From Patescibacteria group bacterium (lineage in GTDB: Bacteria; Patescibacteriota; Patescibacteriia; Patescibacteriales; UBA12465), in NCBI GenBank assembly GCA_041658665.1, contig JBAZZR010000002.1, forward strand, positions 243,437-307,436: a DNA stretch of 64,000 nucleotides. Direction: 5' to 3'. A model generated the notes under the pieces. That model ran no database searches and had not been told where the DNA came from. It worked only from the letters and a program-made list of their open reading frames with translations. The position numbers were made by a program, and so were the translations under genes. This document shows, piece by piece, positions 503 through 59,491 of the stretch (position 1 is its first letter; each line of letters starts with the position of its first letter).

Positions 503-919
503 ATGAACAAAAACTTACTAAAAATTACCAGCCGGCTACTAGGCCTAATATTCATTTTTAATATCTGCTTGATCTGGCCGGCCCAAGCGGCGACCGGAAC
601 CCCTGCTTCTATAATAGACCCCACGGCTTCGGCTTACCAATCAGGCAATTATCAACTTAATGATTTTACTCTTTTAGCGATCAGAATATCCCAAATGATT
701 TTAGGCATAGTTGGTTCTTTGGCTCTAGTGATGTTTGTTTACGGCGGTTTTATGTTTCTCATTTCTTCTGGCTCGTCAGAAAAAATAAAAACCGCTCAAA
801 ATATCCTAGTCGCAGCCGTCATCGGATTAATAATTGTTTTTGCTAGTTATTTAATTATCCAAACTGCCCTTAAGGCGATCGGGCTTTCCTGGGATGGTGG
901 TTTACTGAAAATTAAGTAA
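503..919 (+). CDS. VirB2/TrbC-like (T4SS-pilin-like) small secreted membrane protein, distant seventh paralog of the array at 6815-9345
   Basis: N-terminal signal peptide (LIWPAQAATG), variable ectodomain, then TM helix, short loop (SSGSSEKIKTAQ), second TM helix. Same architecture and loop position as the six tandem genes downstream, but with a divergent loop. Confidence 0.55.
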   Translation: MNKNLLKITSRLLGLIFIFNICLIWPAQAATGTPASIIDPTASAYQSGNYQLNDFTLLAIRISQMILGIVGSLALVMFVYGGFMFLISSGSSEKIKTAQNILVAAVIGLIIVFASYLIIQTALKAIGLSWDGGLLKIK

Positions 920-957: not shown

Positions 958-1617
958 ATGCCAATTTTTATTCCTAAAAAACTGCCGCTCGAAGAGACTA
1001 TCGGCGAACAACTGAGGAGAGCCAGACAATATAAAAATTTAGGACTAGAAGAAATAGCCCAAAAACTAAATATCAGAAAAGAATATTTATCCGCCATGGA
1101 AGAAGAAAATTTTGATAAATTACCAAGCGGTTTATACGGACGAAAATTTTTAAAAAAATATATCAATTTTTTAAAAGTAGAGACGAAAGGAATAAATGAT
1201 CAACAAAAAACTGGTCACGCCCCCGCCAGCAACGACAATCCTTTTTCTCAAAAAATAGTCAAAAAAAATAGTTTTATAATATTTCCCCAAATAATTAAAA
1301 ATATCCTGATCGTCGGCGGCATCCTAATTTGTTTTTTATATCTCATATTTTATTTCCAAAAAATAGTCACGCCGCCAAAATTAATAATTTATCAACCGGA
1401 AAAAAATACTCTCACTAAAAATAAATCTATTTTAGTTAGCGGGCAAACCGAAGCGGAATCAGAAATAAAGATTAATAACCAAATTGTTTTAAGCGACCAA
1501 AATGGCTCTTTTTCTCAGACGGTTAATCTTAAAAAGGGGCTCAACACTATAATAATCAGCGCCCAAAAAAAATATAGCCAAGCCCAAATAATTACTAGAG
1601 AAATATTAGCTGAATAA
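958..1617 (+). CDS. RodZ-like membrane protein with N-terminal helix-turn-helix domain
   Basis: N-terminus GEQLRRARQYKNLGLEEIAQKLNIRKEYLSAMEEENFDKLPSGLYGRKFLKKYINFL matches the RodZ HTH_25 pattern. It is followed by one TM helix and a C-terminal beta-rich domain. Confidence 0.5.
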   Translation: MPIFIPKKLPLEETIGEQLRRARQYKNLGLEEIAQKLNIRKEYLSAMEEENFDKLPSGLYGRKFLKKYINFLKVETKGINDQQKTGHAPASNDNPFSQKIVKKNSFIIFPQIIKNILIVGGILICFLYLIFYFQKIVTPPKLIIYQPEKNTLTKNKSILVSGQTEAESEIKINNQIVLSDQNGSFSQTVNLKKGLNTIIISAQKKYSQAQIITREILAE

Positions 1618-2196: not shown

Positions 2197-2580
2197 ATGA
2201 AAATTTTTCTAACCTTAAACTATTGGTTTAATCTTCGTCCGGAACCGTTAACCCCTTTGGCCGAAAAAATCTTTGATTCCTCAATTATCGCTTTACTTCT
2301 AATAACCATAATTTTAGCCTTTACTAAACGACGCGGCGGATTATACCGGGGGACTTTAAATAGCTTTTATAATTTTAGCCTCACTAATACTCTTATCGGC
2401 TTATTCATCTTTTTTTCCAATTATGAGCTAATCCCCTTCTTCGCGGCTCGCTTCTGGTTCGCTATTTGGGCTCTTCTTATGTTAATTTGGTTAATCTTCA
2501 TCTTTAAAAAATTAAAAACCATCCCCCGAGCTAAACAACAAATAGAAAAAGAAAAAGAATTAAAAAAATACTTGCCTTAA
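2197..2580 (+). CDS. Hypothetical small integral membrane protein
   Basis: Three or four predicted hydrophobic helices and a Lys-rich C-terminus. Followed by an intrinsic terminator. Confidence 0.35.
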   Translation: MKIFLTLNYWFNLRPEPLTPLAEKIFDSSIIALLLITIILAFTKRRGGLYRGTLNSFYNFSLTNTLIGLFIFFSNYELIPFFAARFWFAIWALLMLIWLIFIFKKLKTIPRAKQQIEKEKELKKYLP

Positions 2581-2643: not shown

Positions 2644-3003
2644 ATGAATAACAAAAAACAAATTGGTCAACAAGGAGAATTACTAGCAGAAAAATATTTA
2701 AAACAACAAGGATACGAAATTATTGCTAAAAATTATCGTCTCGGTCGTTTAGAATTAGATATCATCAGTAAATATAAAAATAACTTGATATTCGTAGAAG
2801 TCAAAACTCGACAAAAAACCAGCGCCAGCCGGTTTGATAATAATCTCGGTCATCAACAAATAAATAATCTAAAACGAGCTTTAACAACTTTTTGTTTGAC
2901 GAAACACTATAACTTAGAAACCGCTCGGCTAGATCTTATTGTAATTATGATTGATCAGCCGACCGGAGTTTACACGCTTAAGCATTATCCCGACATTTTC
3001 TAA
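2644..3003 (+). CDS. YraN-family (UPF0102) putative endonuclease
   Basis: GQQGELLAEKYLKQQGYEIIAKNYR...ELDIIS...LIFVEVKTR is the characteristic UPF0102/YraN signature. Confidence 0.6.
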   Translation: MNNKKQIGQQGELLAEKYLKQQGYEIIAKNYRLGRLELDIISKYKNNLIFVEVKTRQKTSASRFDNNLGHQQINNLKRALTTFCLTKHYNLETARLDLIVIMIDQPTGVYTLKHYPDIF

Positions 3004-3733
3004 TTTTTTTAAGCCGCCGCCTAAAAGATAAGAGATTCTTTAAAAAAATTAGACTATCCCGAAACAATTTTACTTTACTCTGGCGGCGACCAAATCTATT
3101 TTCTTGCCAATTAACCGGGACTTCTTTAACCCGATAACCTAAAAATTGCGATAACACTACCAACTCGGTGTCAAAAAACCAATAATTATCTCGCAAAAAC
3201 GGCCGAATCTTCAAAAAAGTCTCCCGACGAATAGCTTTAAAACCGCATTGTAAATCAGTAATATCCTGATTAAGTATTATTCGCGATAAGAAGCTATAAG
3301 CCCGAGAAATTACTTCTCGGCCTAAAGATCTTTTAGTTTCTGCGCCTGACACAAAACGCGAACCGACTGCTAAATCTTGTTTATTCTTAATTAAAGGATC
3401 AACCAGACCAAAAATATTATCTAACGATACGGCTAAATCAGCGTCCATATAAACTAAAAGATCCGCCGGACTAGTCGACCAATATTGTTTTAACGCTCCC
3501 CCACGCCCCGGTTCTTTTATCTCCATAAAATCTAGCTCTTGTGGAAAACGTAACTTAAAATCGGTCAAAATTAATCGCGACGAATCCGTCGAGCCGTTAA
3601 GGACGCCAATTATTCGCCAAATAAAGGGAAAATTAGACTGGCGGCAATAAATCAATAATTTATCCAAACTATTTTTTAGAATAAGCTCCTCATTTTTTAT
3701 CGGCAAACAAAAATCAACTAACATATAACTCAA
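2978..3733 (-). CDS. Family 2 glycosyltransferase, Dpm1/polyprenol-phosphate-sugar synthase-like
   Basis: GT2 fold motifs including a DXD motif (YMDADL). Size and organisation resemble dolichol/polyprenol-phosphate mannosyltransferases. The short C-terminal basic tail is consistent with membrane association. Confidence 0.65.
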   Translation of the reverse strand: MSYMLVDFCLPIKNEELILKNSLDKLLIYCRQSNFPFIWRIIGVLNGSTDSSRLILTDFKLRFPQELDFMEIKEPGRGGALKQYWSTSPADLLVYMDADLAVSLDNIFGLVDPLIKNKQDLAVGSRFVSGAETKRSLGREVISRAYSFLSRIILNQDITDLQCGFKAIRRETFLKIRPFLRDNYWFFDTELVVLSQFLGYRVKEVPVNWQENRFGRRQSKVKLFRDSLIFLKNLLSFRRRLKKIRKCRDNA

Positions 3734-3742
3734 GCTAATCTC

Positions 3743-5134
3743 TTATTTCTTAAATAAAACAACGGCGCCATAAAAACTGGCCACTGGCTGATAATTTTGT
3801 TTAATATAATTATCAACCACATTATCCTGATTATAATGATACTTCTCTACCCCCCGATAATACAAGACCGCACAGTCGGGGTCATTCTTTCTAATTTCTT
3901 GGCTCGTTTGCAAAAATTGTTCAGCGGTATGGTGGTTCGTAATCAGCCAATGGAAAGACGAAGCCGATAACTTTCTGGTCTCTAAATAAATAAAGGGCAA
4001 AAACGGGCCAGCATAAATAAAACGACTATGACAATTACTTTTAAGAAAAGTAATAAAATCATCGGGTTGCTGTTCGCGCGAATAAACTAATGGGGCAATA
4101 ATATTATAAAAGTTTATTAGTAAAACAAAAGCTACCATAGTCGTCGTGAAACTAACCAGTAAACCGAGTCGATTAAGCGGCCACCAACTCGCTTTTTGCC
4201 AGCCTTCTAAAAATAAAAAAGAGAAGATTATCAAAAAGGGAGCGATAATAAAAGATATATGGTAATAGTCCGGCAGAGAATAAGTAGTTAATAGAAGGCC
4301 AGCTTGAATATAAAATAAAAAATTTAACACTAAAATATTCCGGCGGCTAGTCCTCAGCCAGCTAAATATTAATATGCCAAGAAGCGTCAACCAAATTAAA
4401 TAATTATTGTCTAAAGTTTTAGTATATTGAAAAAAGGGAAATTCAATAAGATATTTAAACAATAAAACAGGTGACCATTTAAAGAATAAAAGACTGACCG
4501 GCCCTGCCGCTAGAGGTAAAAACCAAATTAATACCGTTTTTAGCGTTCGGTCCTTAAAATAAAAAAATAAAAGCCAAAAAAATAAAAAGAAAGTTAGTGC
4601 CAAGCCAATCGTTTGCAGAAAAATAATGGCTATTCCCGACAAAAGAGCACTTAACAATATCCGCCACCGACTAGCCACTAAAAACCCCTTAATAAATAAA
4701 TAAATGGCGCCGAAAACAAAAAGTAAAACATAATTATGAGAGGTCATTATCGGCCAATAAATAGTCGAACAAACAAATAGACCGGCCGCCAAATAAGCGG
4801 CTCGGTTACTAAGCATTTGCGCTAACTTAAAAACTAAAATAGTCGATAAAAATAAAGACAAGATAGAAATTATCAAAACCGTTATATAACTAACCCCCCA
4901 TAATTGCCAAATTATCCAAATCATATAAAAAGTTCCGGGAGCCGTGAAAGCAAAAAAATCTTGATAAATCTCTTGACCGTTGAATAAGCCCCAAGCGCCG
5001 CTCAAAAATAATCCATTATCAGAATCGAAACGATTAGAAAAAAAATGCAAAATAACTAATAATAACAAAATCAATGACCAAAAAATTAAAAAAAATACGC
5101 GTTTATTTTTTAACATAAATAGTACTAACGTCAT
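3743..5134 (-). CDS. Large polytopic membrane protein, GT-C-like (PMT/ArnT-type) glycosyltransferase candidate
   Basis: About 11 predicted TM helices followed by a soluble domain of about 120 aa. It is adjacent to, and on the same strand as, the Dpm1-like GT2. The family assignment is inference from topology and context only. Confidence 0.35.
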   Translation of the reverse strand: MTLVLFMLKNKRVFFLIFWSLILLLLVILHFFSNRFDSDNGLFLSGAWGLFNGQEIYQDFFAFTAPGTFYMIWIIWQLWGVSYITVLIISILSLFLSTILVFKLAQMLSNRAAYLAAGLFVCSTIYWPIMTSHNYVLLFVFGAIYLFIKGFLVASRWRILLSALLSGIAIIFLQTIGLALTFFLFFWLLFFYFKDRTLKTVLIWFLPLAAGPVSLLFFKWSPVLLFKYLIEFPFFQYTKTLDNNYLIWLTLLGILIFSWLRTSRRNILVLNFLFYIQAGLLLTTYSLPDYYHISFIIAPFLIIFSFLFLEGWQKASWWPLNRLGLLVSFTTTMVAFVLLINFYNIIAPLVYSREQQPDDFITFLKSNCHSRFIYAGPFLPFIYLETRKLSASSFHWLITNHHTAEQFLQTSQEIRKNDPDCAVLYYRGVEKYHYNQDNVVDNYIKQNYQPVASFYGAVVLFKK

Positions 5135-6692
5135 CTTTAAATAGGGTTGACCAATCAGGGGACGACTCTAAATATTCCCTTAAATAATTACGGCTACGCA
5201 AGTCTTCTTCTTTAATCCCAAAAATTATTTTTTCCCAATTCTCGGCCTTGATCTCCTTATCTTTAGTGGGGATTAAAACTAAAGCGATCTGATAATTTTT
5301 TAGCTTAGCTCTGATATCAATCTCTTGCCTAAAAAAATCTAAATACTCTTCTAAATAGGTCTGCCCTGCTAACTCTACTTGGGGTAAACGGCCGTCAATA
5401 AATAATGAGCGGCGGGAGTCAACCCAAATAAAATAGCCCCCCCAAGCATAACTATTAAATAGCCGCTGCGAATAATAATCAGGCCGCGCCTGTAAAAACT
5501 TAACGGCCGAACAAGGATAATCGTTACAAAAAGATAAAAAAGGATCATTAGTAATTTTTGTTTGGAGCAACTGAGTCGTGGCCGCTAACAATAAGCAAGC
5601 GAACAGAAATAATTTTAACCAATAATTTAAGCGGGTTCTGACAAACGAACCCAATAAAACCCCATATACCTCCACCACGAAAGGAAAACTAGCGATAAAC
5701 ATTAAGGGAAAATGACGACGAGATTTAAAGCTTAAGACAATAAACAAAATAACTACAAATAAATTCCATAAATTAATTTTAAAATATTTCCGGCGCGCTA
5801 AGGCATAATATAAATATAACAACAAGGCTAAGGCGACTAAAGCTAAATAAAAGAGCTGACCGTAATAAAAAGGGAAGAAAAATTGAGAAAGCCATTCTTG
5901 AATATAGGACTGATAAGCGGTATTCCCATAACCCTTTAAAAAAGAATAAAGACCTAATTTATACGGAGTAAACCAAGTAACGACAAACGATAAAAAAAAT
6001 ATTCCTGTCGCGCTTAATAATTCTTTAGCTGATAAAACGCCGGCGGAATCCAGCCAGACTTTCGGCCAATATCGCCAAATTAGCGCCTCGATATTCTTAA
6101 TGAATAACCAAGCACCTAATAAAAATAACGCAATTAAAAAACTAGCATGTAAGCAAGCCCAAAGATAAATAAACCAGGGTAAAAATAATAAGATATATAA
6201 ACGCCTCTTTTGAGTATAACTCTGCAAAATAATAAGCAATAATAATAAAAATAACAAAGCTATTTCTTGTATCCTAACGCCTAAATGCGGTAAAGAAGCA
6301 ACGATGCCAAAAGTTTGAAAAACACTAATTAAAAAAAAGGTATTAGGAGCCCGTAACGAACCTACGAAAAAATTTAATATTATTAAAGTAAAAATTACTA
6401 ATAAGGCGAAAGCTATTGATAAAACAATATATCCGCTTTTTTCGTAAACTAAAAAAGTTAGAAAATTACTTAGCCATTCATGGTCGACCCAATCCCCAGT
6501 AAAACTATAATTAAAATTATTGTTCTGAGGTACGAGAGCGGTGCGAGCAATATCTTGACCGACTTTTAAGTGCCAGCCAAAATCTGGGTCTAAATAACCA
6601 AAAGAATTTCTTAGTAAAAGACAAAAAATAAAAAAATACAAGAAAAACCAAAAAATATAACGAAAATTGACAATCTTTAAAAATTTACCCAT
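5103..6692 (-). CDS. Large polytopic membrane protein (GT-C/Wzy-like) with C-terminal soluble domain
   Basis: More than 10 hydrophobic helices in the N-terminal 360 aa, then a hydrophilic domain of about 170 aa. Overlaps the downstream CDS by 32 nt on the same strand, suggesting an operon. Confidence 0.35.
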   Translation of the reverse strand: MGKFLKIVNFRYIFWFFLYFFIFCLLLRNSFGYLDPDFGWHLKVGQDIARTALVPQNNNFNYSFTGDWVDHEWLSNFLTFLVYEKSGYIVLSIAFALLVIFTLIILNFFVGSLRAPNTFFLISVFQTFGIVASLPHLGVRIQEIALLFLLLLLIILQSYTQKRRLYILLFLPWFIYLWACLHASFLIALFLLGAWLFIKNIEALIWRYWPKVWLDSAGVLSAKELLSATGIFFLSFVVTWFTPYKLGLYSFLKGYGNTAYQSYIQEWLSQFFFPFYYGQLFYLALVALALLLYLYYALARRKYFKINLWNLFVVILFIVLSFKSRRHFPLMFIASFPFVVEVYGVLLGSFVRTRLNYWLKLFLFACLLLAATTQLLQTKITNDPFLSFCNDYPCSAVKFLQARPDYYSQRLFNSYAWGGYFIWVDSRRSLFIDGRLPQVELAGQTYLEEYLDFFRQEIDIRAKLKNYQIALVLIPTKDKEIKAENWEKIIFGIKEEDLRSRNYLREYLESSPDWSTLFKDDVSTIYVKK

Positions 6693-6745
6693 AAAAATTA
6701 GCTAATAACAGCCAGATATAGATATTTTAGCATAGCTAAATATAT

Positions 6746-6774
6746 TTGTCTTGTTTAAATTAATATGCTAAAAT
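6746..6774 (+). promoter_or_regulatory. Candidate sigma70-type promoter for the pilin-like array (TTGTCT-17-TAAAAT)
   Basis: -35-like and -10-like hexamers with 17-nt spacing, seen directly. A strong SD (AAGGTGGTGA) follows 8 nt before the ATG at 6815. Confidence 0.4.
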
Positions 6775-6814
6775 TAAACTATAAAATTTTTTAAAACTAG
6801 AAAGGTGGTGAAAT

Positions 6815-7201
6815 ATGAAAAAAATCTCTAAGCATCTTATATCTTTAGCAATTATTTCTTTGCTCGCTCTTCCTTTATTAGTAGTGCCGGCTCACGCTGT
6901 AGAATTTGACCCAGGTTTAAACCAGGTCAGTAACGGCCTAGGCGGCTCTTTAACTAATAGTGATCCTCGAACAATTATCGGTAGAGTGATTAATGTCGCT
7001 CTTGGATTCTTGGGCGTGATTGCTGTTTGCATCATCTTATTAGGCGGTTTCAAATGGATGACAGCCGGAGGCAATGAAGAAAAGACTGGTGAAGCTAGAC
7101 AACTTTTAGGCGCTGGCGTTATCGGATTAGTTATTATAATGGCTTCTTGGGGCATCGCCAATTTTGTTATCAACTCTCTTAATTCAGCCGTAGCTAATTA
7201 A
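6815..7201 (+). CDS. VirB2/TrbC-like pilin-family protein, paralog 1 (strongest RBS in the array; candidate major subunit)
   Basis: Signal peptide (ALPLLVVPAHA), variable region, TM1, conserved loop WMTAGGNEEK, TM2. Preceded by a perfect SD. Confidence 0.65.
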   Translation: MKKISKHLISLAIISLLALPLLVVPAHAVEFDPGLNQVSNGLGGSLTNSDPRTIIGRVINVALGFLGVIAVCIILLGGFKWMTAGGNEEKTGEARQLLGAGVIGLVIIMASWGIANFVINSLNSAVAN

Positions 7202-7236
7202 GAATATAAAAAGTGATTCTCATTAAACAATGGGGA

Positions 7237-7276
7237 TCACTGTCCTGAATGCAAATTATTGTTTCCAGGACAGTGA
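7237..7276 (+). promoter_or_regulatory. Perfect 11-bp stem-loop (18-nt loop) between pilin paralogs 1 and 2, overlapping the SD region of paralog 2
   Basis: tcactgtcctg...caggacagtga seen directly, with no following U-run. Candidate mRNA processing/stability or translational attenuation element. Confidence 0.5.
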
Positions 7277-7284
7277 ATAACACT

Positions 7285-7671
7285 ATGAAAAAACCAATTT
7301 TTTTGCTATTGCTATTTATTTGGAGCGCGTTAATTTTTGGGACAATAACAGTGAGCGCCCAAACCGATCCTAGTTACGGTCTTAATGACACGGCCGGCAA
7401 AGTCGGCGCCTTTCAGGGTAGTTTAGGAAAAGACTATACTAATTTTTTAAGTACAAAAACCGGACAAATTATCGGAGTTATCTTATCTTTCGTCGGTGTC
7501 TTATTTTTAGGGTTAATGATTTATGCCGGTCTAATGTGGATGACTTCTAACGGCAATGAACAACTGGTTACTAAAGCGAAGGATCTCATAATTAACTCTG
7601 TTATCGGCATTATTATAGTCTTTGCGGCTTATGCCCTCACTTCATTCTTAGGACAAGAAGTTATTAAATAA
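7285..7671 (+). CDS. VirB2/TrbC-like pilin-family protein, paralog 2
   Basis: MKKPIFLLLLF... signal peptide (VSAQT), TM1, loop WMTSNGNEQ, TM2. The ORF track offers an upstream ATG at 7249, but 7285 gives the family-typical MKK signal peptide. Confidence 0.6.
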   Translation: MKKPIFLLLLFIWSALIFGTITVSAQTDPSYGLNDTAGKVGAFQGSLGKDYTNFLSTKTGQIIGVILSFVGVLFLGLMIYAGLMWMTSNGNEQLVTKAKDLIINSVIGIIIVFAAYALTSFLGQEVIK

Positions 7672-7674
7672 CCG

Positions 7675-8058
7675 ATGTTCAAACTAAAAAATAAAAATTA
7701 TATTATAGTTGGCGCGCTGCTTTTTATCTTAAGTAGTGCTAGCGTCTATGCGGCCGGATCTTATGATTTTATAGAAAAAAGCGGCTTAAAAAATACGGCC
7801 GATAACGCCGGATATGAAACCGCCGCCGCCACCACCATAAACGGAATAATGAGCCAGGTAATTTATGTTTTTTTAGGTTTAATAGCAATCGCCTTCTTCG
7901 GCCTACTCCTCTATGGCGGCTTGATGTGGATGACGGCTCGTGATAACGCAGAAAAGGTAAAAAAGGCTAATGGTATTATTATGAATGCCTTAATCGGATT
8001 TATTGTTACTCTATCAGCTTATGTAATCAGCTACTTTATTATTAAATATTTTAATTAA
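7675..8058 (+). CDS. VirB2/TrbC-like pilin-family protein, paralog 3
   Basis: Signal peptide (SVYAAGS), TM1, loop WMTARDNAEK, TM2. A 3-nt gap separates it from paralog 2. Confidence 0.6.
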   Translation: MFKLKNKNYIIVGALLFILSSASVYAAGSYDFIEKSGLKNTADNAGYETAAATTINGIMSQVIYVFLGLIAIAFFGLLLYGGLMWMTARDNAEKVKKANGIIMNALIGFIVTLSAYVISYFIIKYFN

Positions 8059-8118
8059 AAATAGGATCTTTTATCGCCAGTGGCCTAATATTTAAACCAA
8101 CTACCCATTAATATCGCT

Positions 8119-8511
8119 ATGAAAAAGACACTGCTCTCACTAATTATAATAACGTTCATATTTATATTATATCCCGCCTATTCTAGTAGAGCTAACCTAA
8201 TTACTCCTGACAAAAAACAAGATTTTACTAGCAATATCACTAATGCGGCTACCTCAAGTTATGATACTAACCGCGACTTAAACTCTACTTTAGCTAAAGT
8301 AATCCAATTAGTCCTGTCTGTTTTAGGCATGATATTCCTAGTTTTAATGTTCTTAGCCGGTAATGATTGGATGCAAGCGGCCGGCAATGAAGAAAAGGTA
8401 AAAAAATCTCAAGAAGTAATTCGTAATCTGCTAATCGGCCTAGTCATAGTCCTTGTGGCTTACGCTATGAGTTCCGGATTTAGCACAGTATTAAAAACTT
8501 TGGTAAAATAG
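8119..8511 (+). CDS. VirB2/TrbC-like pilin-family protein, paralog 4
   Basis: Signal peptide, Ser/Thr-rich variable region, TM1, loop WMQAAGNEEK, TM2. Confidence 0.6.
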   Translation: MKKTLLSLIIITFIFILYPAYSSRANLITPDKKQDFTSNITNAATSSYDTNRDLNSTLAKVIQLVLSVLGMIFLVLMFLAGNDWMQAAGNEEKVKKSQEVIRNLLIGLVIVLVAYAMSSGFSTVLKTLVK

Positions 8512-8518
8512 ACTATTT

Positions 8519-8914
8519 ATGAGAAAAAAAATCTTATCTCTATCATCTATCGCCGTCACTATAGGAAGCTTCTTGTTAACTTGGTCGGCTAAAGCAGCTG
8601 ATCCAAAATCCGATACTCTTTTAAACAGGCTTACTAACGTCGCTGGCCAGGGCGGTTACGAAACTAACCCCGCTATAGCTTCGACGCCAATAATCATTGG
8701 GACAGTAGTAGGCGCTTTTATAAACTTTTTAGGTATAACTTTTATTATCTTAATAATTATCGCCGGCTACCACTGGATGACAGCTAACGGCAGCGAAGAA
8801 AAAGTCGAAAAAGCTAAAGAGACTATTAAACAAGCCCTAATCGGCTTAGCCGTAGCCATTGCCGCCTGGGCGATGTGGCGGTTTATATTCGAAGCCTTAA
8901 TTTTGAAAAAATAA
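8519..8914 (+). CDS. VirB2/TrbC-like pilin-family protein, paralog 5
   Basis: Signal peptide (SAKAADP), TM1, loop WMTANGSEEK, TM2. Confidence 0.6.
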   Translation: MRKKILSLSSIAVTIGSFLLTWSAKAADPKSDTLLNRLTNVAGQGGYETNPAIASTPIIIGTVVGAFINFLGITFIILIIIAGYHWMTANGSEEKVEKAKETIKQALIGLAVAIAAWAMWRFIFEALILKK

Positions 8915-8919
8915 TACAT

Positions 8920-9345
8920 ATGAAAAAGATAATCACAACTTGTTTATTCCTCTTTCTCTTCTTTTTCTCTGTTAATTTAGTCGAGGCCCAAACCAGCGGC
9001 GGAATATTAAATAATACTGCCCTTCTCGGCGGTCTAACCACCCAAACCGCTCATAGCGCCAATTTTGGTGATATGTCTTTAGGCGATGTACTCGCTCTAA
9101 TAATTCAAATCGTTTTAGGATTTTTAGGGACTGTCTTCATTATTTTAATGATTATCAGCGGTTTTCGTTTAATGACTGCTGGCGGTAACGAAGAACAAGT
9201 ACAAAAAGCTACCGAAACTATTAGAACAGCAATCATCGGACTAATCATTGTAATATCAGCTTATGCTATTACCTATTTCGTCATCTATTACCTACCATTT
9301 AGCAGTACCGGGGCGGAAAACATGGGGACTCTAGCCCCCGGTTAA
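8920..9345 (+). CDS. VirB2/TrbC-like pilin-family protein, paralog 6
   Basis: MKKIITTCLFLFLF signal peptide (LVEAQT), TM1, loop LMTAGGNEEQ, TM2. Start chosen at 8920 rather than the track's 8875, which overlaps paralog 5. Confidence 0.6.
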   Translation: MKKIITTCLFLFLFFFSVNLVEAQTSGGILNNTALLGGLTTQTAHSANFGDMSLGDVLALIIQIVLGFLGTVFIILMIISGFRLMTAGGNEEQVQKATETIRTAIIGLIIVISAYAITYFVIYYLPFSSTGAENMGTLAPG

Positions 9346-9373
9346 AAAACGACTTATTATATTCTAAATAATA

Positions 9374-9406
9374 AAAAGGCTGTCGGATTAATGACAGCCT
9401 TTTTTA
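9374..9406. terminator. Bidirectional intrinsic terminator (GGCUGUC/GACAGCC stem flanked by A-run and U-run)
   Basis: aaaaaggctgtcggattaatgacagcctttttt seen directly. Sits between the convergent pilin array (+) and the lipoprotein gene (-). Confidence 0.6.
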
Positions 9407-9434: not shown

Positions 9435-10172
9435 TTAAGGGCGCAAAGTCGCCTTAAGGGCATACTTTTTCCCTCCGTCATAATAATTGACTCCTGGCGC
9501 CACCTTCATAGACAGCGATCTAGACTGCCCCTCATAGCGCCCCTGAGTTCGACAGGTAATCGTATACCAACCAGGCGTTGGTAAAACAAATTCCGGACTC
9601 TTACGATTATCCTTATTATCAAGGATAAAATAAACATGAAACCCGAATGAGTTACTTACCTCAACCGACAAAGTCTCAACATTAGGATTAGCATTTTCGA
9701 TAATCCCAATTAAAGAATCTTGGCGATTCCCCTGGCTTAAATATTTAATGTTCATGTACGCTCCAGCAATTTCGCTAGGATTATCCCCTGTTAGGCGTAC
9801 ATAATCATCCTCCATCGTAGATTGAGTTAGTAGAGAGTTGATTTTCTCCGTTAGCTCTCCTACTTTTGTCTGATAGAAACGAACTAGCGAATCATTTTCG
9901 CTAATTATAATCCCAGCCCGATTTACCAATACTTTATTACCGAGAACTGAGTCTCTATCAGCCAGCTCTTGCAACTCTCCCTCCTCTACACGCAATTTTT
10001 TGATTTTTGACTCGTAATTATTAATCTCTTGAGTCAAAATATCGATTGTCTTTTGAATATCCCCCGAACTTTTTTGACCGAAACCCATATAAGATAGCGG
10101 GGTAGAGGAACAACCGATGGAAAAAAATGCTAACAAGGCAACAAACACGGACAATAAACTGAACTTTTTCAT
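9435..10172 (-). CDS. Putative lipoprotein with coiled-coil region
   Basis: N-terminal signal peptide with a lipobox (FFSIGC). The central region is heptad-rich. No recognisable catalytic motif. Confidence 0.45.
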   Translation of the reverse strand: MKKFSLLSVFVALLAFFSIGCSSTPLSYMGFGQKSSGDIQKTIDILTQEINNYESKIKKLRVEEGELQELADRDSVLGNKVLVNRAGIIISENDSLVRFYQTKVGELTEKINSLLTQSTMEDDYVRLTGDNPSEIAGAYMNIKYLSQGNRQDSLIGIIENANPNVETLSVEVSNSFGFHVYFILDNKDNRKSPEFVLPTPGWYTITCRTQGRYEGQSRSLSMKVAPGVNYYDGGKKYALKATLRP

Positions 10173-16015: not shown

Positions 16016-16720
16016 TTAATATTTACCAAAATCATACTTAACAATTTTCTTCTTAATCTTAATATTAAATAAAGTAAAAATACCCATACTGAACCATTTA
16101 AAACATAACTTAAGCTCTCCCTCTTTCTCTAGCCGTCGCGCTGAAAACAGAATACGGCTAGAGCTAATCATTCGAAATTTTCCTTGAGTCGCTAGACGAT
16201 TACAATAATCAAAATCTTCCGCTACATAAATTCCGACATCAAACCCCTTAATCGCTTCATGCCCGGATTTTTTTGCTAATATAGCGGCGCCGGCTCCTAC
16301 CGGAGAAAAATATTGTCGCGCCCTGGAAAAAATATTAAAAAGAGTAGAATAAATATAGTAATGGGTTTTACTAGGATTAAAACGAATATAAAAAGCGGCG
16401 CCTATTAAATCTAAAGCAATAAATTCTTTTAAAGATTTAGCTAAAAAATTTTCTGGCAAAACGGAATCGGCATCCAAAAATAATAAAATATCTCCCTGAG
16501 CCACCGCCGCGCCATTATTCCTTTGCCAAGCGGGATGATGATGTTCGGTGTCCGTTATAAATAAACAATTATTATCCAAAGCAATCTGTTTAGTTTTGTC
16601 TAAAGATCCTCCGTCAGAAACAATAATTTCGTAGTCTAAAAAATTTTGGGCTCGAATAGAGGCGAGTAATCGAGGCAAATATTTTTCTTCATTTAAAGTA
16701 GGGATAATGATTGATAACAT
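16016..16720 (-). CDS. Family 2 glycosyltransferase
   Basis: N-terminal LSIIIPTLNEEKYLPRLLASI and a DXD motif (LDADSVL). Confidence 0.7.
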   Translation of the reverse strand: MLSIIIPTLNEEKYLPRLLASIRAQNFLDYEIIVSDGGSLDKTKQIALDNNCLFITDTEHHHPAWQRNNGAAVAQGDILLFLDADSVLPENFLAKSLKEFIALDLIGAAFYIRFNPSKTHYYIYSTLFNIFSRARQYFSPVGAGAAILAKKSGHEAIKGFDVGIYVAEDFDYCNRLATQGKFRMISSSRILFSARRLEKEGELKLCFKWFSMGIFTLFNIKIKKKIVKYDFGKY

Positions 16721-16725
16721 AAAAA

Positions 16726-17766
16726 TTACTTAAAAATTCCCCTCGCTAACTCCCAATAACTTTTATCACCATTTTTATATTGATAATACCACCATTCTAC
16801 GCCCCATAAATAAGTTTTCTGAAAATTAATATTAATGGCGTACTGCAAGTTAGCTTTAAATTGTGACAAACTAAATGATTTTTTAATTTCTGCCGGCGAC
16901 AAATAAATAATATTCCCGTTAGGTACCCAAGGCTCAGCTTGTAGCTCAATAACGAGACGTTTATCCGGCTTAATTCCCGCCAAATAAGCTTTAAATTGAT
17001 AAAACCAGGCCGGGATTGGATAACGCAGATAACCTAATTTAGAACTCCAAACAACGCGATAGACTGTACTACCGAATATATCCGCATATTTAGCTTCTTG
17101 GCGCCAATAACTTAATTCCCCCGTAGCGGAAACTATAATTGGCCGGCTATCTAATTGTTTAACTAAATCAAATTCCCGCTTAAAAAAATCTTCATCACCG
17201 GCCGGACAAACGCCAAAGGCATCAAAAAACGGTTCATTTTCCAACTGCCAAGAAATAATTGCCGCTTCATTTTTATAATGACTCACAACCTGTCCCAACA
17301 TACTTAGCGCCCTGGCTTGAGTAGCCGCCAAACTTTTTTTCTGAGCCCATTGAGGAGCATGACATTCTGGCCAGCGCGGTAGACGCCAACCAATATTTAC
17401 AATAAAACGGACATTACGCTTAGCGCCCTCCCTAATAATATAATCATACTGTGAAAAATCATAATTATCCCTTACCTTTTCAATTTCATCCCAATAAATC
17501 GGCAACCTAATTTCTTTCACCTGCAGATCGTCTAAAATAGCCGAATATACTTCTTTCCAGTCTAGGCCTATTTCCGAACAAAACTTAGTAGAAAAAGTTA
17601 CCCCAAAAAAATCTGAGCGATGCTTTAAATCCTGCGCCAGTGGATAGTTACTGGCTAGTTTAAAAAAATAAATCAACAAAATAAAAAAAATAAACCCCGT
17701 TATTGGCCAAAATTTAAAAAAATTTTTTATTCTCTGAATATTTTTTAACTGAATATCTTTTAACAT
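16726..17766 (-). CDS. GH5-like glycoside hydrolase with N-terminal membrane anchor
   Basis: (beta/alpha)8-type motifs including the catalytic acid/base NEP (SWQLENEPF). One N-terminal TM helix. The exact family is uncertain. Confidence 0.4.
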   Translation of the reverse strand: MLKDIQLKNIQRIKNFFKFWPITGFIFFILLIYFFKLASNYPLAQDLKHRSDFFGVTFSTKFCSEIGLDWKEVYSAILDDLQVKEIRLPIYWDEIEKVRDNYDFSQYDYIIREGAKRNVRFIVNIGWRLPRWPECHAPQWAQKKSLAATQARALSMLGQVVSHYKNEAAIISWQLENEPFFDAFGVCPAGDEDFFKREFDLVKQLDSRPIIVSATGELSYWRQEAKYADIFGSTVYRVVWSSKLGYLRYPIPAWFYQFKAYLAGIKPDKRLVIELQAEPWVPNGNIIYLSPAEIKKSFSLSQFKANLQYAININFQKTYLWGVEWWYYQYKNGDKSYWELARGIFK

Positions 17767-17767
17767 A

Positions 17768-18703
17768 TTAATTAATTATACAATACAGTCCTAACCCAAT
17801 AATCACTACGGCGCTCAATTTTTTGAAAAAGACTGGCCAGGAAAAAGTTTCTTTCAATAACTTAGGTGATAAAAGGGCCAACCCGGTACCGATAATCAAT
17901 AAAAAAGCATATTGCGCCCCCTGCAAAGCATTGACTAAGGCGACGGAACCTAAAAAAATAGCGTAATTTTGCAAAAGGAAACCCAGGGAGCCAAGTAATT
18001 GATTAAAAAAAACCAAAACCTGGTTCCGACGAGAGGCGCTCTTATAAAACTGACTTATAATTATTCGGCGCTCCGACTTTGATATCAAAAAAAGTATTAC
18101 TAGTAAAGCCGCTCCTAAACGATTCCACATAAAGACACTTAGAAACGGTTGCGTACTATATAAAAATTTAGTACTCAGAAAATACGTCGAATAGGCTAAA
18201 GCCGCTAATACGGCGAAACCAAAACCGCCAATTTTTATTTCTTGAGTCAATCGTAATTTATTAAATACTCGACTCGCATAACTCCGCTGGACTGGTAAAA
18301 AAGCGACAATTAATATCCCTATCAACAAAAACAGAAAGCCTAAAAACTGCCAGGCTGAAAAATGTTCTTTAAAAAATAACAGAGAAAATAGAATAGAAAA
18401 AACCGGCGTTAAACCGCCGACTAATATTAATATCCGAGACGCTTCGCCACGATATAAAGCTTCAAATAAAAACCAAATAGCTAAAGCAAAAATTGCCCCC
18501 GCCATCAGATCGCCAAAAAATAACCCCCAACCTGGCCAACTTAAAAACCAAGGCGCCAACAAAAAAACTAGCAAACCAAAGACACAAACAATAAAAGCGT
18601 AGGCACGGGAACTTTTAACCACCTGATCGACTAAAAATTTATCTAATAAATTAGCAAAAGCTAAAATTAAATAAGCGCTAAGAGCAATAAAAATCCAAGA
18701 CAT
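17768..18703 (-). CDS. DMT/EamA-like polytopic membrane protein (10 TM helices)
   Basis: Two repeated 5-TM halves. Sits within a glycosyltransferase cluster, possibly a sugar/lipid-linked intermediate transporter. Confidence 0.4.
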   Translation of the reverse strand: MSWIFIALSAYLILAFANLLDKFLVDQVVKSSRAYAFIVCVFGLLVFLLAPWFLSWPGWGLFFGDLMAGAIFALAIWFLFEALYRGEASRILILVGGLTPVFSILFSLLFFKEHFSAWQFLGFLFLLIGILIVAFLPVQRSYASRVFNKLRLTQEIKIGGFGFAVLAALAYSTYFLSTKFLYSTQPFLSVFMWNRLGAALLVILFLISKSERRIIISQFYKSASRRNQVLVFFNQLLGSLGFLLQNYAIFLGSVALVNALQGAQYAFLLIIGTGLALLSPKLLKETFSWPVFFKKLSAVVIIGLGLYCIIN

Positions 18704-18706
18704 AAA

Positions 18707-30198: not shown

Positions 30199-30210
30199 GG
30201 CCGTAAATTT

Positions 30211-32064: not shown

Positions 32065-33547
<1,483 letters not shown>

Positions 33548-58024: not shown

Positions 58025-58294
58025 AAATCTGGTTTATTTCTGTGTATGAGCTGTGTAAAAATTATGAATAAAGGTCTAATTAATGTGAATAAAAATTGTC
58101 GAGGTGTTGATAAATAACTAAATAAAAAAAGTTATTAACGCCCACTCGAAATAATTAACAAGAAAATCAACAAGCTATAAACAAACGAAATTAAACAAAA
58201 CCCTAATTAAATGATTAAAATCGCGATAAACAAAAATTTATCCACCCCCTTATTACTATTATTAATTATATAATTAATAATTATAAATAATAAT
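58025..58294. other. oriC part 2: dnaA-dnaN intergenic region with DnaA boxes and an AT-rich unwinding element
   Basis: TTATCCACC, TGTTGATAA and TGTGAATAA boxes. A 45-nt pure A/T tract lies immediately upstream of dnaN. Confidence 0.55.
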
Positions 58295-59422: not shown

Positions 59423-59439
59423 AATATTAGGAACAATTA

Positions 59440-59474
59440 TAAAAAAAGACCGGCCTAATAGGGTCGGTCTTTTG
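59440..59474. terminator. Bidirectional intrinsic terminator between dnaN and the PBP gene
   Basis: aaaaaaagaccggcctaatagggtcggtcttttg seen directly. Confidence 0.5.
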
Positions 59475-59491
59475 AAATTTGAGGTAGTCGC

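What the first reader, a model, noticed from the sequence alone, without database searches (positions are those of the whole stretch)
2978..6692. Lipid-linked glycosylation module (Dpm1-like GT2 plus two large GT-C/Wzy-like polytopic proteins) directly next to the pilin array
A polyprenol-phosphate-sugar synthase-like GT2 is followed by two 460-530-aa proteins, each with 11 or more TM helices and a soluble C-terminal domain. That is the architecture of PMT/ArnT/oligosaccharyltransferase-type enzymes, which move sugars from lipid carriers to periplasmic acceptors. They lie immediately upstream of, and divergent from, pilin genes with Ser/Thr-rich ectodomains. Together this suggests a pilin or surface-protein O-glycosylation system, analogous to Ppm1/Pmt or PglL-type systems but built from unrelated parts.
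Basis: inference. Interest (0 to 1): 0.6.

Follow-up and report, generated by a model that had tools for sequence, protein, structure and literature searches.

The report
Sugar-transfer genes beside secretion-type pilin array
An uncultured ultrasmall bacterium (Patescibacteria) carries three genes for lipid-linked sugar transfer outside the cell, and across distant relatives they stay next to six conjugation-type (VirB2-like) pilin genes, so these pilins are probably sugar-coated, which has not been reported before.

Summary
Three minus-strand genes form a tight operon: ORF-C (5103-6692), ORF-B (3743-5134) and a GT2 (2978-3733). It diverges from six pilin genes (6815-9345).

The GT2 is closest to polyprenyl-phosphate sugar synthases (DPMS, ArnC). 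Structure prediction shows both polytopic proteins have the GT-C fold. ORF-B resembles ArnT. ORF-C resembles DPY19 and oligosaccharyltransferases, matches no Pfam, NCBIfam or PDB sequence, and has an invariant D-P-D motif in its first outer loop. Neither is Wzy-like.

The pilins are VirB2/TrbC-like T4SS pilins (PF18895), not type IV pilins. Their ectodomains are only about 1.8-fold enriched in Ser/Thr.

- 55 of 64 related loci keep the divergent array.
- The whole module recurs at 28-46% identity in an unrelated neighbourhood beside dnaA.
- Relatives at about 30% identity sit inside pilin operons, once about 4 kb from VirB4.
- Proteobacterial plasmid relatives form GT2-methyltransferase-GtrA-GT-C cassettes.

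Most likely this is a lipid-linked glycosylation system whose favoured acceptor is the pilins. The acceptor is inferred only: no conserved acceptor residue was found, and about two-thirds of distant relatives have no pilin neighbour. New variant of a known kind; interest about 0.6.

The parts
2978..3733 (-). GT2 glycosyltransferase (251 aa), a probable polyprenyl-phosphate sugar synthase. It has a DAD motif at residues 97-99 and no predicted TM helix.
   Evidence: PF00535 at 5.9e-16. Best NCBIfam matches are AglJ, Dol-P-hexose transferase, ArnC and PpgS, all below their equivalog cut-offs. Best PDB sequence matches are DPMS 5mlz at 3.3e-9, then ArnC. No hydrophobic segment found. A homologue lies within 3.5 kb downstream of ORF-C in most related loci.
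3743..5134 (-). ORF-B, an ArnT/PMT_2-like GT-C glycosyltransferase (463 aa). It has an invariant S38-D39-x-G41 motif in the first outer loop and a C-terminal soluble domain. It is an accessory member of the module.
   Evidence: PF13231 PMT_2 at 23.9 bits, below the gathering score of 26.1. Seven of its 10 homologues carry PF13231. AF2 pLDDT 81.2. Top Foldseek match is ArnT 5f15 (2e-5, TM 0.58), then STT3, ALG12 and PglB. Present in only 11 of 80 genome loci, but also in the transposed module in L169/L170.
5103..6692 (-). ORF-C, a GT-C-fold glycosyltransferase of an undescribed family (529 aa). It has 11 TM helices and a C-terminal alpha/beta domain from about residue 384. Invariant residues: D35-P-D37-x-G-W-H41, W68-x-D-H-E-W73, R140/Q142, H182, E266-W267, R326, Y415-x-W-G418, F431-I-D-G-R-x-P-Q438.
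   Evidence: No Pfam or NCBIfam hit. No PDB sequence hit at E<=10. AF2 pLDDT 91.8, pTM 0.91. Foldseek matches are DPY19 7zlg, AglB, STT3, PglB, AftA and ALG9 (E 7e-6 to 1e-1, TM 0.40-0.58). Invariant columns, retained in relatives at 23-34% pairwise identity. Profile search finds 2,521 cluster representatives at E<=1e-30.
6693..6814 (.). 122-bp AT-rich divergent intergenic region between ORF-C and the first pilin gene. A strong Shine-Dalgarno sequence (AAAGGTGGTG) precedes the pilin start codon.
   Evidence: Sequence read. Back-to-back promoter-like sites with extended -10 TG lie on both strands (6752-6724 on minus, 6746-6774 on plus). The total count of promoter-like sites is not above shuffles, so this is weak evidence.
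6815..7201 (+). Pilin p1: signal peptide, about 30-aa ecto-segment, two TM helices joined by a W-M-T-A-G-G-N-E-E-K loop. The most conserved paralogue.
   Evidence: PF18895 at 37.4 bits. Positional orthologue in 51 of 51 arrays. 68% identical to L169 p1, where ORF-C is only 38% identical.
7249..7671 (+). Pilin p2. The likely true start is the ATG at 7285 (MKKPIF...).
   Evidence: PF18895 at 32.2 bits. Positional orthologue in 47 of 51 arrays.
7675..8058 (+). Pilin p3.
   Evidence: PF18895 at 34.6 bits. Positional orthologue in 46 of 51 arrays.
8119..8511 (+). Pilin p4.
   Evidence: PF18895 at 30.3 bits. Positional orthologue in 31 of 51 arrays.
8519..8914 (+). Pilin p5.
   Evidence: PF18895 at 35.2 bits. 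Positional orthologue in 37 of 51 arrays.
8875..9345 (+). Pilin p6. The likely true start is the ATG at 8920 (MKKIITT...).
   Evidence: PF18895 at 36.0 bits. Positional orthologue in 48 of 51 arrays.
9373..9404 (.). 12-bp-stem hairpin flanked by A/T runs, lying just after the array. Terminator-like.
   Evidence: A consensus scan only.
503..919 (+). Seventh, distal pilin gene. It lies about 2 kb beyond the GT2 end of the operon.
   Evidence: PF18895 at 33.5 bits. A pilin gene is present at the equivalent position in 56 of 58 loci. It best-matches the window's distal pilin in 37 of 37 cases.

Best explanation
This is a lipid-linked, extracytoplasmic glycosylation module of the three-component type. 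The proposed steps are:
1. On the cytoplasmic face, the soluble GT2 (DPMS/ArnC-like) loads one sugar from a nucleotide sugar onto polyprenyl phosphate.
2. The lipid-linked sugar is flipped by an unidentified flippase. No GtrA is encoded in the window.
3. On the outer face, ORF-C transfers the sugar to an acceptor. ORF-C is a GT-C enzyme with 11 TM helices and a D35-P-D37 motif right after TM1, the position where GT-C enzymes carry their catalytic or metal-binding acidic residues. Its conserved C-terminal domain probably holds the acceptor.
4. ORF-B, an ArnT/PMT_2-like GT-C found in a minority of loci, adds a second sugar or serves a second site.

The most likely acceptor is the roughly 25-30-residue N-terminal ecto-segment of the VirB2-like pilins encoded divergently next door. 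That would give a glycosylated T4SS-type pilin set.

Status of each step:
- Shown: gene structure, folds, conserved motifs, conserved linkage.
- Inferred from family knowledge: the monosaccharide-phosphate-lipid donor and the topology.
- Inferred from gene neighbourhood only: the pilin acceptor.
For: Fold and motifs:
- Both polytopic proteins match only GT-C structures with confidence. The models are high quality.
- The acidic outer-loop-1 motifs are invariant: D35/D37 in ORF-C and D39 in ORF-B. The ORF-C motif persists in a set of distant relatives with 23-34% pairwise identity, in distant relatives that are 28-31% identical to ORF-C, and in Proteobacteria.

Donor:
- The GT2's nearest relatives are all polyprenyl-phosphate monosaccharide synthases.
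- Distant ORF-C relatives sit in canonical GT2-methyltransferase-GtrA-GT-C cassettes on proteobacterial plasmids. Profile scores for these relatives are 4.5e-53 to 3.5e-60.
- One metagenomic relative sits beside a GtrA_DPMS_TM gene.

Linkage to pilins:
- 55 of 64 loci with at least 3 kb upstream have the divergent adjacent array, median six genes.
- Where the surrounding synteny is lost, 12 of 17 loci still keep the array and 10 of 12 keep the GT2.
- L169 and L170 carry the whole module: six pilins divergent from ORF-C (37-38% identity), ORF-B (28-29%) and GT2 (40-46%). There it lies between Tig/H+-PPase/NusA and PBP/DnaN/DnaA. None of those flanks the module in the window.
- Relatives at 28-31% identity lie co-directionally inside pilin operons (L088, L090, L099, L129). 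In a Levybacteria contig (L084) the relative lies among pilin genes about 4 kb from a VirB4-like ATPase and PrgI.

Precedent: P. aeruginosa TfpW is a GT-C enzyme with 11 TM helices. It is encoded next to pilA and glycosylates pilin Ser/Thr from a polyprenyl-phosphate sugar (bioRxiv 10.1101/2020.04.19.049825).
Against: - There is no experimental evidence of glycosylation.
- No acceptor residue (S/T, N-x-S/T or W) is conserved across the pilin ecto-segments. The best positions reach about 40% S/T occupancy. The most conserved paralogue, p1, has no conserved S/T there.
- The window's own clade is broadly syntenic. Neighbouring housekeeping genes are conserved in 53-76% of loci, so much of the headline co-occurrence is shared ancestry.
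- Among distant relatives with at least 4 kb on both sides, only 7 of 20 have a pilin gene within 4 kb and 6 of 20 a GT2.
- Some proteobacterial cassettes have no pilin nearby.
- Five otherwise syntenic loci lack the GT2 nearby.
- No flippase was identified, and no T4SS machinery lies within the 64-kb window.
- No genomic background rate for pilin genes was measured. Enrichment is argued from the decline with distance and from reported array frequencies (PMC12102498).
Confidence: 0.5

Rival explanations
1. The biochemistry is the same, but the acceptor is a cell-envelope glycopolymer or lipid: a teichoic-acid-like polymer, peptidoglycan or a lipoglycan. This would resemble the CsbB/GtcA/YfhO system for lipoteichoic acid or the GtrABC system for O-antigen. 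The pilin adjacency would then reflect co-regulated envelope genes and inherited gene order.
For: - Three-component GT2/GtrA/GT-C systems classically modify glycopolymers (PMC8035078, PMC7389260; listed).
- Proteobacterial family members occur as GT2-methyltransferase-GtrA-GT-C cassettes, some with no pilin nearby.
- One relative lies beside a GT2-MptA_B fusion typical of lipoglycan synthesis.
- About two-thirds of distant relatives lack pilin neighbours.
- The window encodes other envelope-polymer genes: LytR-CpsA-Psr, an MBOAT plus AlgX-like pair, and a second GT2/GH5 cluster.
- Background synteny is high in the window's clade.
Against: - The module and the array relocated together to a different chromosomal neighbourhood.
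- Relatives are embedded co-directionally within pilin operons in several unrelated arrangements.
- Linkage persists where flanking synteny is lost.
Confidence: 0.28
2. ORF-C and/or ORF-B is a broad-specificity protein O-glycosyltransferase, working like actinobacterial Ppm1/Pmt. It would modify many secreted or membrane proteins. The pilins would be only its most abundant clients.
For: - The fold is close to protein-modifying GT-C enzymes: DPY19, the oligosaccharyltransferases, and more weakly Pmt4.
- No strict sequon is conserved in the pilins, as expected for PMT-like enzymes.
- Many family members are unlinked to pilins.
Against: General glycosylation systems are usually not kept in such tight, repeatedly re-created linkage with one substrate family. 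No PMT (PF02366) or MIR domain was detected.
Confidence: 0.15
3. The polytopic proteins are not glycosyltransferases. They would be transporters, or pilin chaperone or assembly factors that happen to share a GT-C-like helical bundle.
For: Other VirB2-type systems use dedicated membrane maturation factors (own knowledge: TraQ, TraX, TraF). No enzymatic assay exists for this family.
Against: - Transporter structures match only at E>=0.5 with TM scores of about 0.1, whereas GT-C structures reach probability 1.0.
- The invariant acidic motif sits at the canonical GT-C catalytic position.
- The family is consistently partnered with a DPMS-like GT2 and, elsewhere, with GtrA.
Confidence: 0.05

Closest known systems
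P. aeruginosa TfpW with the D-Araf genes (group IV pilin arabinosylation)
   Same: A GT-C enzyme with 11 TM helices and a C-terminal extracytoplasmic domain. It is encoded directly beside the pilin gene and uses a polyprenyl-monophosphate sugar to modify pilin Ser/Thr. It has an acidic GT-C motif in an outer loop (bioRxiv 10.1101/2020.04.19.049825).
   Different: - The TfpW substrate is a type IV pilin. Here the neighbours are VirB2/TrbC-like T4SS pilins.
- ORF-C has no TPR domain and no detectable sequence similarity to any solved GT-C.
- TfpW works with a GtrA-like protein. None is encoded in this window.
Three-component glycosylation systems (GtrA/GtrB/GtrC for O-antigen; CsbB/GtcA/YfhO for lipoteichoic acid)
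   Same: A GT2 makes a polyprenyl-phosphate sugar, and a GT-C transfers it outside the membrane. Proteobacterial ORF-C relatives sit in GT2-methyltransferase-GtrA-GT-C cassettes.
   Different: - There is no GtrA gene in the window's module.
- The GT2 lacks the C-terminal TM helices usual for GtrB/CsbB.
- The linked candidate acceptor is a protein family, not a glycopolymer.
- Two GT-C enzymes are in tandem.
Actinobacterial Ppm1/Pmt protein O-mannosylation and eukaryotic Dpm1/PMT
   Same: A DPMS-type GT2 plus a GT-C protein glycosyltransferase that uses a lipid-monophosphate sugar. The closest solved relative of the GT2 is a Dol-P-Man synthase.
   Different: - No PMT (PF02366) or MIR domains are present.
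- ORF-B hits only the ArnT-like PMT_2 model, below threshold.
- ORF-C ranks Pmt4 low (E 1.7).
- In the Ppm1/Pmt systems the genes are not linked to a substrate gene.
DPY19 C-mannosyltransferase and STT3/AglB/PglB oligosaccharyltransferases
   Same: These are the best structural matches to ORF-C (E 7e-6 to 1e-3, TM 0.43-0.58). They are protein-modifying GT-C enzymes with a D/E motif in outer loop 1 and a C-terminal outer domain.
   Different: - No sequence-level relationship.
- The C-terminal domain is much smaller.
- The WWDYG motif is replaced by Y-x-W-G-G-Y.
- The adjacent GT2 points to a monosaccharide donor, not an en-bloc oligosaccharide.
- No outward-facing conserved Trp was found in the pilins.
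VirB2-like pilin arrays of Patescibacteria (Microb Genom 2025, PMC12102498; Southlakia T4SS, PMC10633639)
   Same: The window's array is one of the reported tandem arrays of 2-11 divergent PF18895/TrbC-like genes. Paralogues are about 19-27% identical, in line with the reported mean of 25%.
   Different: - Neither of those two papers mentions an associated glycosyltransferase.
- This array is not next to virB4 within 64 kb.
- The six paralogues are positionally orthologous across genomes. That argues against simple antigenic-variation-style turnover.

Membership tests
GT-C glycosyltransferase superfamily (ORF-C) | Polytopic membrane protein with 8-13 TM helices, N-terminus inside | tested here: met
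   11 long helices in the AF2 model and 11 hydrophobic segments. The N-terminus is K-rich.
GT-C glycosyltransferase superfamily (ORF-C) | Conserved acidic motif (DxD, DD or ExD) in the first extracytoplasmic loop | tested here: met
   D35-P-D37 lies directly after TM1. It is invariant in 51 sequences. It is kept as DPD, or as DTD in one sequence, in relatives with 23-34% pairwise identity and in Proteobacteria.
GT-C glycosyltransferase superfamily (ORF-C) | Structural similarity to solved GT-C enzymes | tested here: met
   Foldseek against the PDB: 16 matches at E<=1e-3, all GT-C (DPY19, AglB, STT3). PglB, AftA and ALG9 follow at E 1.1e-3 to 0.12, and transporters appear only from E>=0.5.
GT-C glycosyltransferase superfamily (ORF-C) | Uses a polyprenyl-phosphate-linked sugar donor | not testable with these tools
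   Inferred from the adjacent DPMS-like GT2 and from GtrA neighbours of relatives.
Oligosaccharyltransferase STT3/PglB/AglB (GT66) | WWDYG motif in the C-terminal domain, and sequence membership | tested here: not met
   No WWD motif. The conserved motif is Y-x-W-G-G-Y. Profile searches against PDB sequences give no hit at E<=10. No STT3 Pfam hit.
ArnT/PMT_2 family PF13231 (ORF-B) | Match to PF13231 above the gathering score | tested here: inconclusive
   23.9 bits against a cut-off of 26.1 for the window protein. Seven of 10 homologues carry PF13231 in precomputed annotation. The best structural match is ArnT 5f15.
Protein O-mannosyltransferase PMT (GT39) | PMT domain PF02366 with MIR domains | tested here: not met
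   No such Pfam hits for ORF-B or ORF-C. PMT structures rank low.
Wzy_C / O-antigen ligase / PglL-type O-oligosaccharyltransferase | Wzy_C domain (PF04932) or WaaL/PglL-like fold | tested here: not met
   No Pfam hit. No ligase or polymerase structures appear among the fold matches.
Polyprenyl-phosphate glycosyltransferase GT2 (DPMS/GtrB/ArnC type) | GT-A GT2 domain with a DxD motif, closest to polyprenyl-phosphate sugar synthases | tested here: met
   PF00535 at 59.3 bits. DAD motif at residues 97-99. Best NCBIfam and PDB matches are AglJ, Dol-P-hexose transferase, ArnC, PpgS and DPMS 5mlz. All NCBIfam scores are far below the equivalog cut-offs, so the sugar is unknown.
Polyprenyl-phosphate glycosyltransferase GT2 (DPMS/GtrB/ArnC type) | C-terminal TM helices anchoring the enzyme (GtrB, type III DPMS) | tested here: not met
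   No hydrophobic segment found. There is only a basic amphipathic C-terminus. It resembles TM-less DPM1/Ppm1-type catalytic subunits (own knowledge).
Three-component glycosylation system | GtrA-family flippase (PF04138) encoded with the GT2 and the GT-C | tested here: not met
   No PF04138 hit among the window ORFs scanned. GtrA is present beside family members elsewhere.
T4SS pilin (VirB2/TrbC-like, PF18895) | Pfam match above the gathering score; signal peptide plus two TM helices with a charged loop | tested here: met
   All seven genes score 30.3-37.4 bits against a cut-off of 26.6. Architecture confirmed.
T4SS pilin (VirB2/TrbC-like, PF18895) | Encoded with T4SS machinery (VirB4 and others) | tested here: not met
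   No VirB4 or other T4SS component among the window's ORFs. In Levybacteria locus L084 the pilins, the ORF-C relative, VirB4 and PrgI are clustered.

The most novel reading that the evidence does not exclude
ORF-C founds an undescribed GT-C family with no Pfam model. The family is widespread in Patescibacteria and also occurs in proteobacterial plasmid cassettes. In Patescibacteria its dedicated job would be to glycosylate VirB2-like T4SS pilins. That would be the first glycosylated conjugation-type pilus. It would act on a fixed set of six (plus one) anciently diverged pilin paralogues, which more likely form a heteromeric or functionally partitioned surface filament than an antigenic-variation array.
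Probability: 0.4. Interest if true: 0.75.

Novelty: new variant of a known kind. Interest (0 to 1): 0.62.

Why it matters
VirB2-like pilin arrays are among the few envelope features of Patescibacteria reported as essential for epibiotic growth (Southlakia; PMC10633639). Their role is unknown, because Gram-positive-type T4SSs normally lack pili (PMC12102498).

A dedicated, co-inherited sugar-transfer module would mean these pilins are decorated. That bears on host recognition, on phage and immune evasion, and on filament stability in a very large and mostly uncultured part of bacterial diversity.

It would also give a testable function to a large protein family that has no annotation. The family has 2,521 cluster representatives at E<=1e-30. 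It would extend pilin glycosylation from type IV pili to T4SS-type pilins.

The positional orthology of the six paralogues also challenges the view that these arrays are simply variation cassettes.

Tried and rejected
- **Sequence searches against solved structures.** Profiles of ORF-C, its distant relatives and ORF-B gave nothing useful.
- **ORF-B against ORF-C.** hhalign found only a weak C-terminal-domain similarity (probability 27.6%). They are not close paralogues.
- **Acceptor site.** I looked for a conserved Ser/Thr, N-x-S/T or outward-facing Trp in 415 pilins and within each orthologue group. Only scattered, paralogue-specific S/T positions turned up, and none in p1.
- **T4SS machinery and GtrA flippase in the window.** None found.
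- **The 127-aa three-TM protein at 2197-2580.** It is conserved near the GT2 in 44 of 58 loci. It has no GtrA match. No homologue is annotated within the L169/L170 loci, whose GT2 is followed directly by a PBP gene. It stays a candidate flippase only.
- **Convergent lipoprotein at the array's far end.** Tested as a possible conserved module part. Only 13 of 53 loci have one, and they are not homologous. Rejected.
- **Divergent promoters.** Promoter-like sites are not above shuffled expectation.
- **The 'novel CPR pilus' preprint (Pam system).** It concerns an unrelated donor-strand-exchange pilus.
- **Flp-pilin adjacency in Phyllobacterium.** It is not seen in a Pararhizobium cassette, so it is treated as suggestive only.

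Full report
**1. What is there**

The window has low G+C (about 0.36) and comes from an uncultured member of the Patescibacteria (CPR). The closest relatives of its proteins are from 'Patescibacteria group' and Candidatus Falkowbacteria MAGs.

- ORF-C at 5103-6692 (529 aa)
- ORF-B at 3743-5134 (463 aa)
- GT2 at 2978-3733 (251 aa)

ORF-C overlaps ORF-B by 32 bp, and ORF-B ends 9 bp before the GT2 start. The three read as one operon.

A 122-bp AT-rich spacer separates ORF-C from six plus-strand genes of 127-141 aa (6815-9345). A seventh similar gene lies at 503-919.

**2. The pilins**

All seven small proteins match Pfam PF18895 (T4SS_pilin) above the gathering threshold, and more weakly TrbC/VirB2. 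NCBIfam gives 'Mbov_0395 family pilin-like conjugal transfer protein', just below its 40-bit cut-off, for the two (p1, p2) that were scanned. Each has four parts:
- a signal peptide
- an ecto-segment of about 25-30 residues
- two TM helices joined by a W-M-T-A-G-G-N-E-E-K loop
- a short tail

They are VirB2-like T4SS pilins, not type IV pilins. Arrays of 2-11 such genes are already described in Patescibacteria (PMC12102498). They are reported as essential in Southlakia (PMC10633639). Neither paper mentions glycosylation.

The ecto-segments have S+T of 0.21, against 0.116 for the window's other proteins. That is a modest enrichment.

**3. The GT2**

The protein matches PF00535 at 5.9e-16. Its best NCBIfam matches are AglJ, Dol-P-hexose transferase, ArnC and PpgS. 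The best solved relatives by sequence are P. furiosus Dol-P-Man synthase 5mlz (3.3e-9) and ArnC.

Every one of these makes a polyprenyl-monophosphate sugar. The scores are far below the equivalog cut-offs, so the identity of the sugar is open. The protein has a DAD motif and no TM helix.

**4. The two polytopic proteins**

*ORF-C.*
- It has no Pfam, NCBIfam or PDB sequence match.
- An AlphaFold2 model built from 51 homologues is very confident (pLDDT 91.8, pTM 0.91). It shows 11 TM helices and a C-terminal alpha/beta domain.
- Foldseek against the PDB returns only GT-C enzymes at E<=1e-3: DPY19 C-mannosyltransferase, AglB and STT3. PglB, AftA and ALG9 follow at E 1.1e-3 to 0.12. TM scores for these GT-C matches are 0.40-0.58. 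Transporters appear only at E>=0.5 with TM scores of about 0.1.
- Invariant residues include D35-P-D37-x-G-W-H directly after TM1, which is the canonical position of the GT-C catalytic acidic motif. Others are W-x-D-H-E-W (68-73), R140/Q142, H182, E266-W267 and R326. In the outer domain, Y-x-W-G-G-Y and F-I-D-G-R-x-P-Q are invariant.
- The same motifs survive in a set of distant relatives with 23-34% pairwise identity (28-31% to ORF-C).

*ORF-B.*
- It gives a sub-threshold PMT_2 hit. Seven of its 10 homologues carry PF13231.
- Its model (pLDDT 81.2) best matches ArnT, then STT3, ALG12 and PglB.
- It has an invariant D39 in outer loop 1.

Both proteins are therefore GT-C enzymes. Neither resembles Wzy, WaaL or PglL. 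They are not close paralogues of each other.

**5. Size of the ORF-C family**

A profile search of 1.84 billion cluster representatives finds 2,521 at E<=1e-30 and 14,155 at E<=1e-10. The weaker tier may include compositional matches between membrane proteins. Ten of the most distant listed members also lack any Pfam match.

The family reaches Microgenomatia-type lineages (Daviesbacteria, Levybacteria). It also reaches proteobacterial plasmids, where profile scores are 4.5e-53 to 3.5e-60 and the D-P/T-D-x-x-W-H, W-x-N-L-H, N-P-Y-G and F-I/V-D-G-R motifs are kept.

**6. Is the link to the pilins more than chance or ancestry?**

*Within the window's clade.*
- Among 80 genome loci encoding ORF-C relatives, 55 of the 64 with at least 3 kb upstream have the divergent adjacent array, with a median of six genes.
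- A homologue of the GT2 lies within 3.5 kb downstream in 41 of 51 loci with long downstream flanks.
- ORF-B is present in only 11 loci.
- This clade is broadly syntenic, though. Unrelated neighbours (RodZ-like, methyltransferase, YraN, PpsA, Lgt) are conserved in 53-76% of loci. Raw co-occurrence therefore overstates the case.

*Three controls rescue it.*
- (a) Where flanking synteny is lost, 12 of 17 loci still keep the array and 10 of 12 keep the GT2.
- (b) L169 and L170 carry the complete module in a different neighbourhood. It comprises six pilins divergent from ORF-C (37-38% identity), ORF-B (28-29%; profile 1e-117 and 3e-106) and GT2 (40-46%). There it lies between Tig/H+-PPase/NusA and PBP/DnaN/DnaA. 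The module moved, or was retained, as a unit.
- (c) Relatives at 28-31% identity sit in quite different arrangements:
  - pilin-pilin-ORF-C with a convergent 310-aa GT2 (L088)
  - five pilins followed by ORF-C (L090)
  - pilin-pilin-ORF-C-pilin (L099)
  - four pilins, ORF-C, then a pilin (L129)
  - in a Levybacteria contig, ORF-C among four pilin genes about 4 kb from a VirB4-like ATPase and PrgI (L084)

*Limits of the link.*
- It is not universal. Among distant loci with at least 4 kb on both sides, 7 of 20 have pilins within 4 kb and 6 of 20 have a GT2.
- Pilin density falls with distance from ORF-C: 33 genes within 0-4 kb against 12 within 4-7.8 kb over 50 flanks.
- I could not measure a genome-wide background rate.

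**7. Support for the lipid-linked mechanism from outside the phylum**

On Phyllobacterium, Pararhizobium, Sulfuricystis and Azospira plasmids, the ORF-C relatives form the last gene or genes of GT2-SAM methyltransferase-GtrA-GT-C cassettes. A metagenomic relative lies beside a GT2-MptA_B fusion and a GtrA_DPMS_TM gene. This is the classic three-component layout.

Three contexts are worth noting:
- The Phyllobacterium cassette follows two Flp type IVb pilin genes.
- The Sulfuricystis and Azospira cassettes lie in the TraG region of the transfer genes (with TraH in Sulfuricystis) of plasmids typed MOBH.
- The Pararhizobium cassette has no pilus genes nearby.

This hint of a wider pilus connection is therefore only suggestive.

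**8. Mechanism proposed**

The GT2 makes a polyprenyl-phosphate sugar on the inner face. An unidentified flippase moves it across the membrane. ORF-C, using D35/D37, transfers the sugar to an extracytoplasmic acceptor. ORF-B is an optional second transferase.

Gene linkage makes the pilin ecto-segments the favoured acceptor. I rate the biochemical class at about 0.85 and the pilin acceptor at about 0.5.

The main weakness is that no acceptor residue is conserved. Across 415 pilins the best ecto-segment positions reach about 40% S/T. Within orthologue groups only p2 and p3 have an ecto-segment S/T conserved at 90% or more, and p1 has none.

The rivals are glycopolymer or lipid acceptors, as in CsbB/GtcA/YfhO, and a broad PMT-like protein glycosylation system.

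**9. Comparison and novelty**

Functionally the nearest precedent is P. aeruginosa TfpW. It is a GT-C enzyme with 11 TM helices, encoded next to pilA, that glycosylates pilin Ser/Thr from a polyprenyl-phosphate sugar. Architecturally the module is a three-component-type system without GtrA.

ORF-C fails the tests for membership of the OST, PMT and Wzy_C families. It passes those for the GT-C superfamily.

Three things appear to be new:
- the ORF-C family itself
- its repeated, module-level coupling to VirB2-like pilin arrays
- the implication that T4SS-type pilins are glycosylated

Three full-text searches and targeted reading of four papers did not find this.

**10. Side result**

The six pilins are positionally orthologous across 51 arrays. 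Matches by position are:

| Position | Loci matching |
|---|---|
| p1 | 51/51 |
| p2 | 47/51 |
| p3 | 46/51 |
| p4 | 31/51 |
| p5 | 37/51 |
| p6 | 48/51 |
| distal seventh | 37/37 |

p1 is 68% identical between the window and L169, where ORF-C is only 38% identical. The array is a fixed set of ancient paralogues, not a rapidly turning-over cassette.

**Verdict**

This is a new variant of a known kind. Interest is about 0.6.

Noticed in passing
window 6815-9345 and 503-919; loci L001-L080, L169, L170: The six array pilins and the distal seventh are positionally orthologous across 51 arrays (p1 51/51 through p6 48/51; distal 37/37). p1 is far more conserved than ORF-C: 68% against 38% identity to L169. 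This fits a fixed heteromeric or functionally partitioned set better than antigenic-variation-style turnover.
   Followed up: yes
L171 (Phyllobacterium plasmid NZ_CP104971.1), L172 (Sulfuricystis pSTJ1), L173 (Pararhizobium plasmid), L174 (Azospira pAZI09): ORF-C-family proteins, annotated 'hypothetical', end GT2-SAM methyltransferase-GtrA-GT-C cassettes on proteobacterial plasmids. One cassette lies directly after two Flp type IVb pilin genes. Two lie beside PRTRC and TraG genes (plus TraH in Sulfuricystis) on plasmids typed MOBH, with the GT-C tandemly duplicated. One has no pilus genes nearby.
   Followed up: partly
window 2197-2580 (+): A 127-aa protein with three predicted TM segments and no family match. 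It is conserved near the GT2 in 44 of 58 related loci, but no homologue is annotated within the L169/L170 loci. It is a possible but unsupported flippase or accessory candidate.
   Followed up: partly
window 56594-62341; L169/L170 11.6-17.5 kb: dnaA, dnaN and a class A PBP lie at 56.6-62.3 kb, where the GC skew changes sign. This is the probable replication origin. In L169/L170 the pilin/GT-C module sits directly beside the same PBP-dnaN-dnaA trio, whereas in the window it is about 50 kb away.
   Followed up: partly
window 9435-10172 (-); L169 4524-5207; L170 4623-5252: A lipoprotein gene (lipobox ...IGC) converges on the far end of the pilin array. Non-homologous lipoproteins occupy the same position in L169 and L170, but in only 13 of 53 related loci.
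   Followed up: partly
window 16016-19984, 29056-31698, 36949-38412: Other envelope-glycan genes are present: a second GT2 with a GH5-like protein, an EamA transporter and DUF6938; an MBOAT plus AlgX-like SGNH pair; and a LytR-CpsA-Psr ligase. These point to glycopolymers that could be alternative acceptors.
   Followed up: no
window 32065-33546 (+): A complete 16S rRNA gene stands alone. No 23S or 5S rRNA gene is found anywhere in the 64-kb window, so the rRNA operon is unlinked.
   Followed up: no
L147 1308-4485; L157 2020-6336: Some metagenomic contigs carry two ORF-C-family genes in tandem or close together. This echoes the two-GT-C layout of the window and the tandem pair on the Sulfuricystis plasmid.
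   Followed up: no
window 958-1617 (+): A RodZ-like protein: an HTH_25 domain, a TM segment and a Glucodextran_B-like beta domain. It gives a faint match to the CPR pilus protein PamR model and is conserved beside the module in 44 of 58 loci.
   Followed up: no
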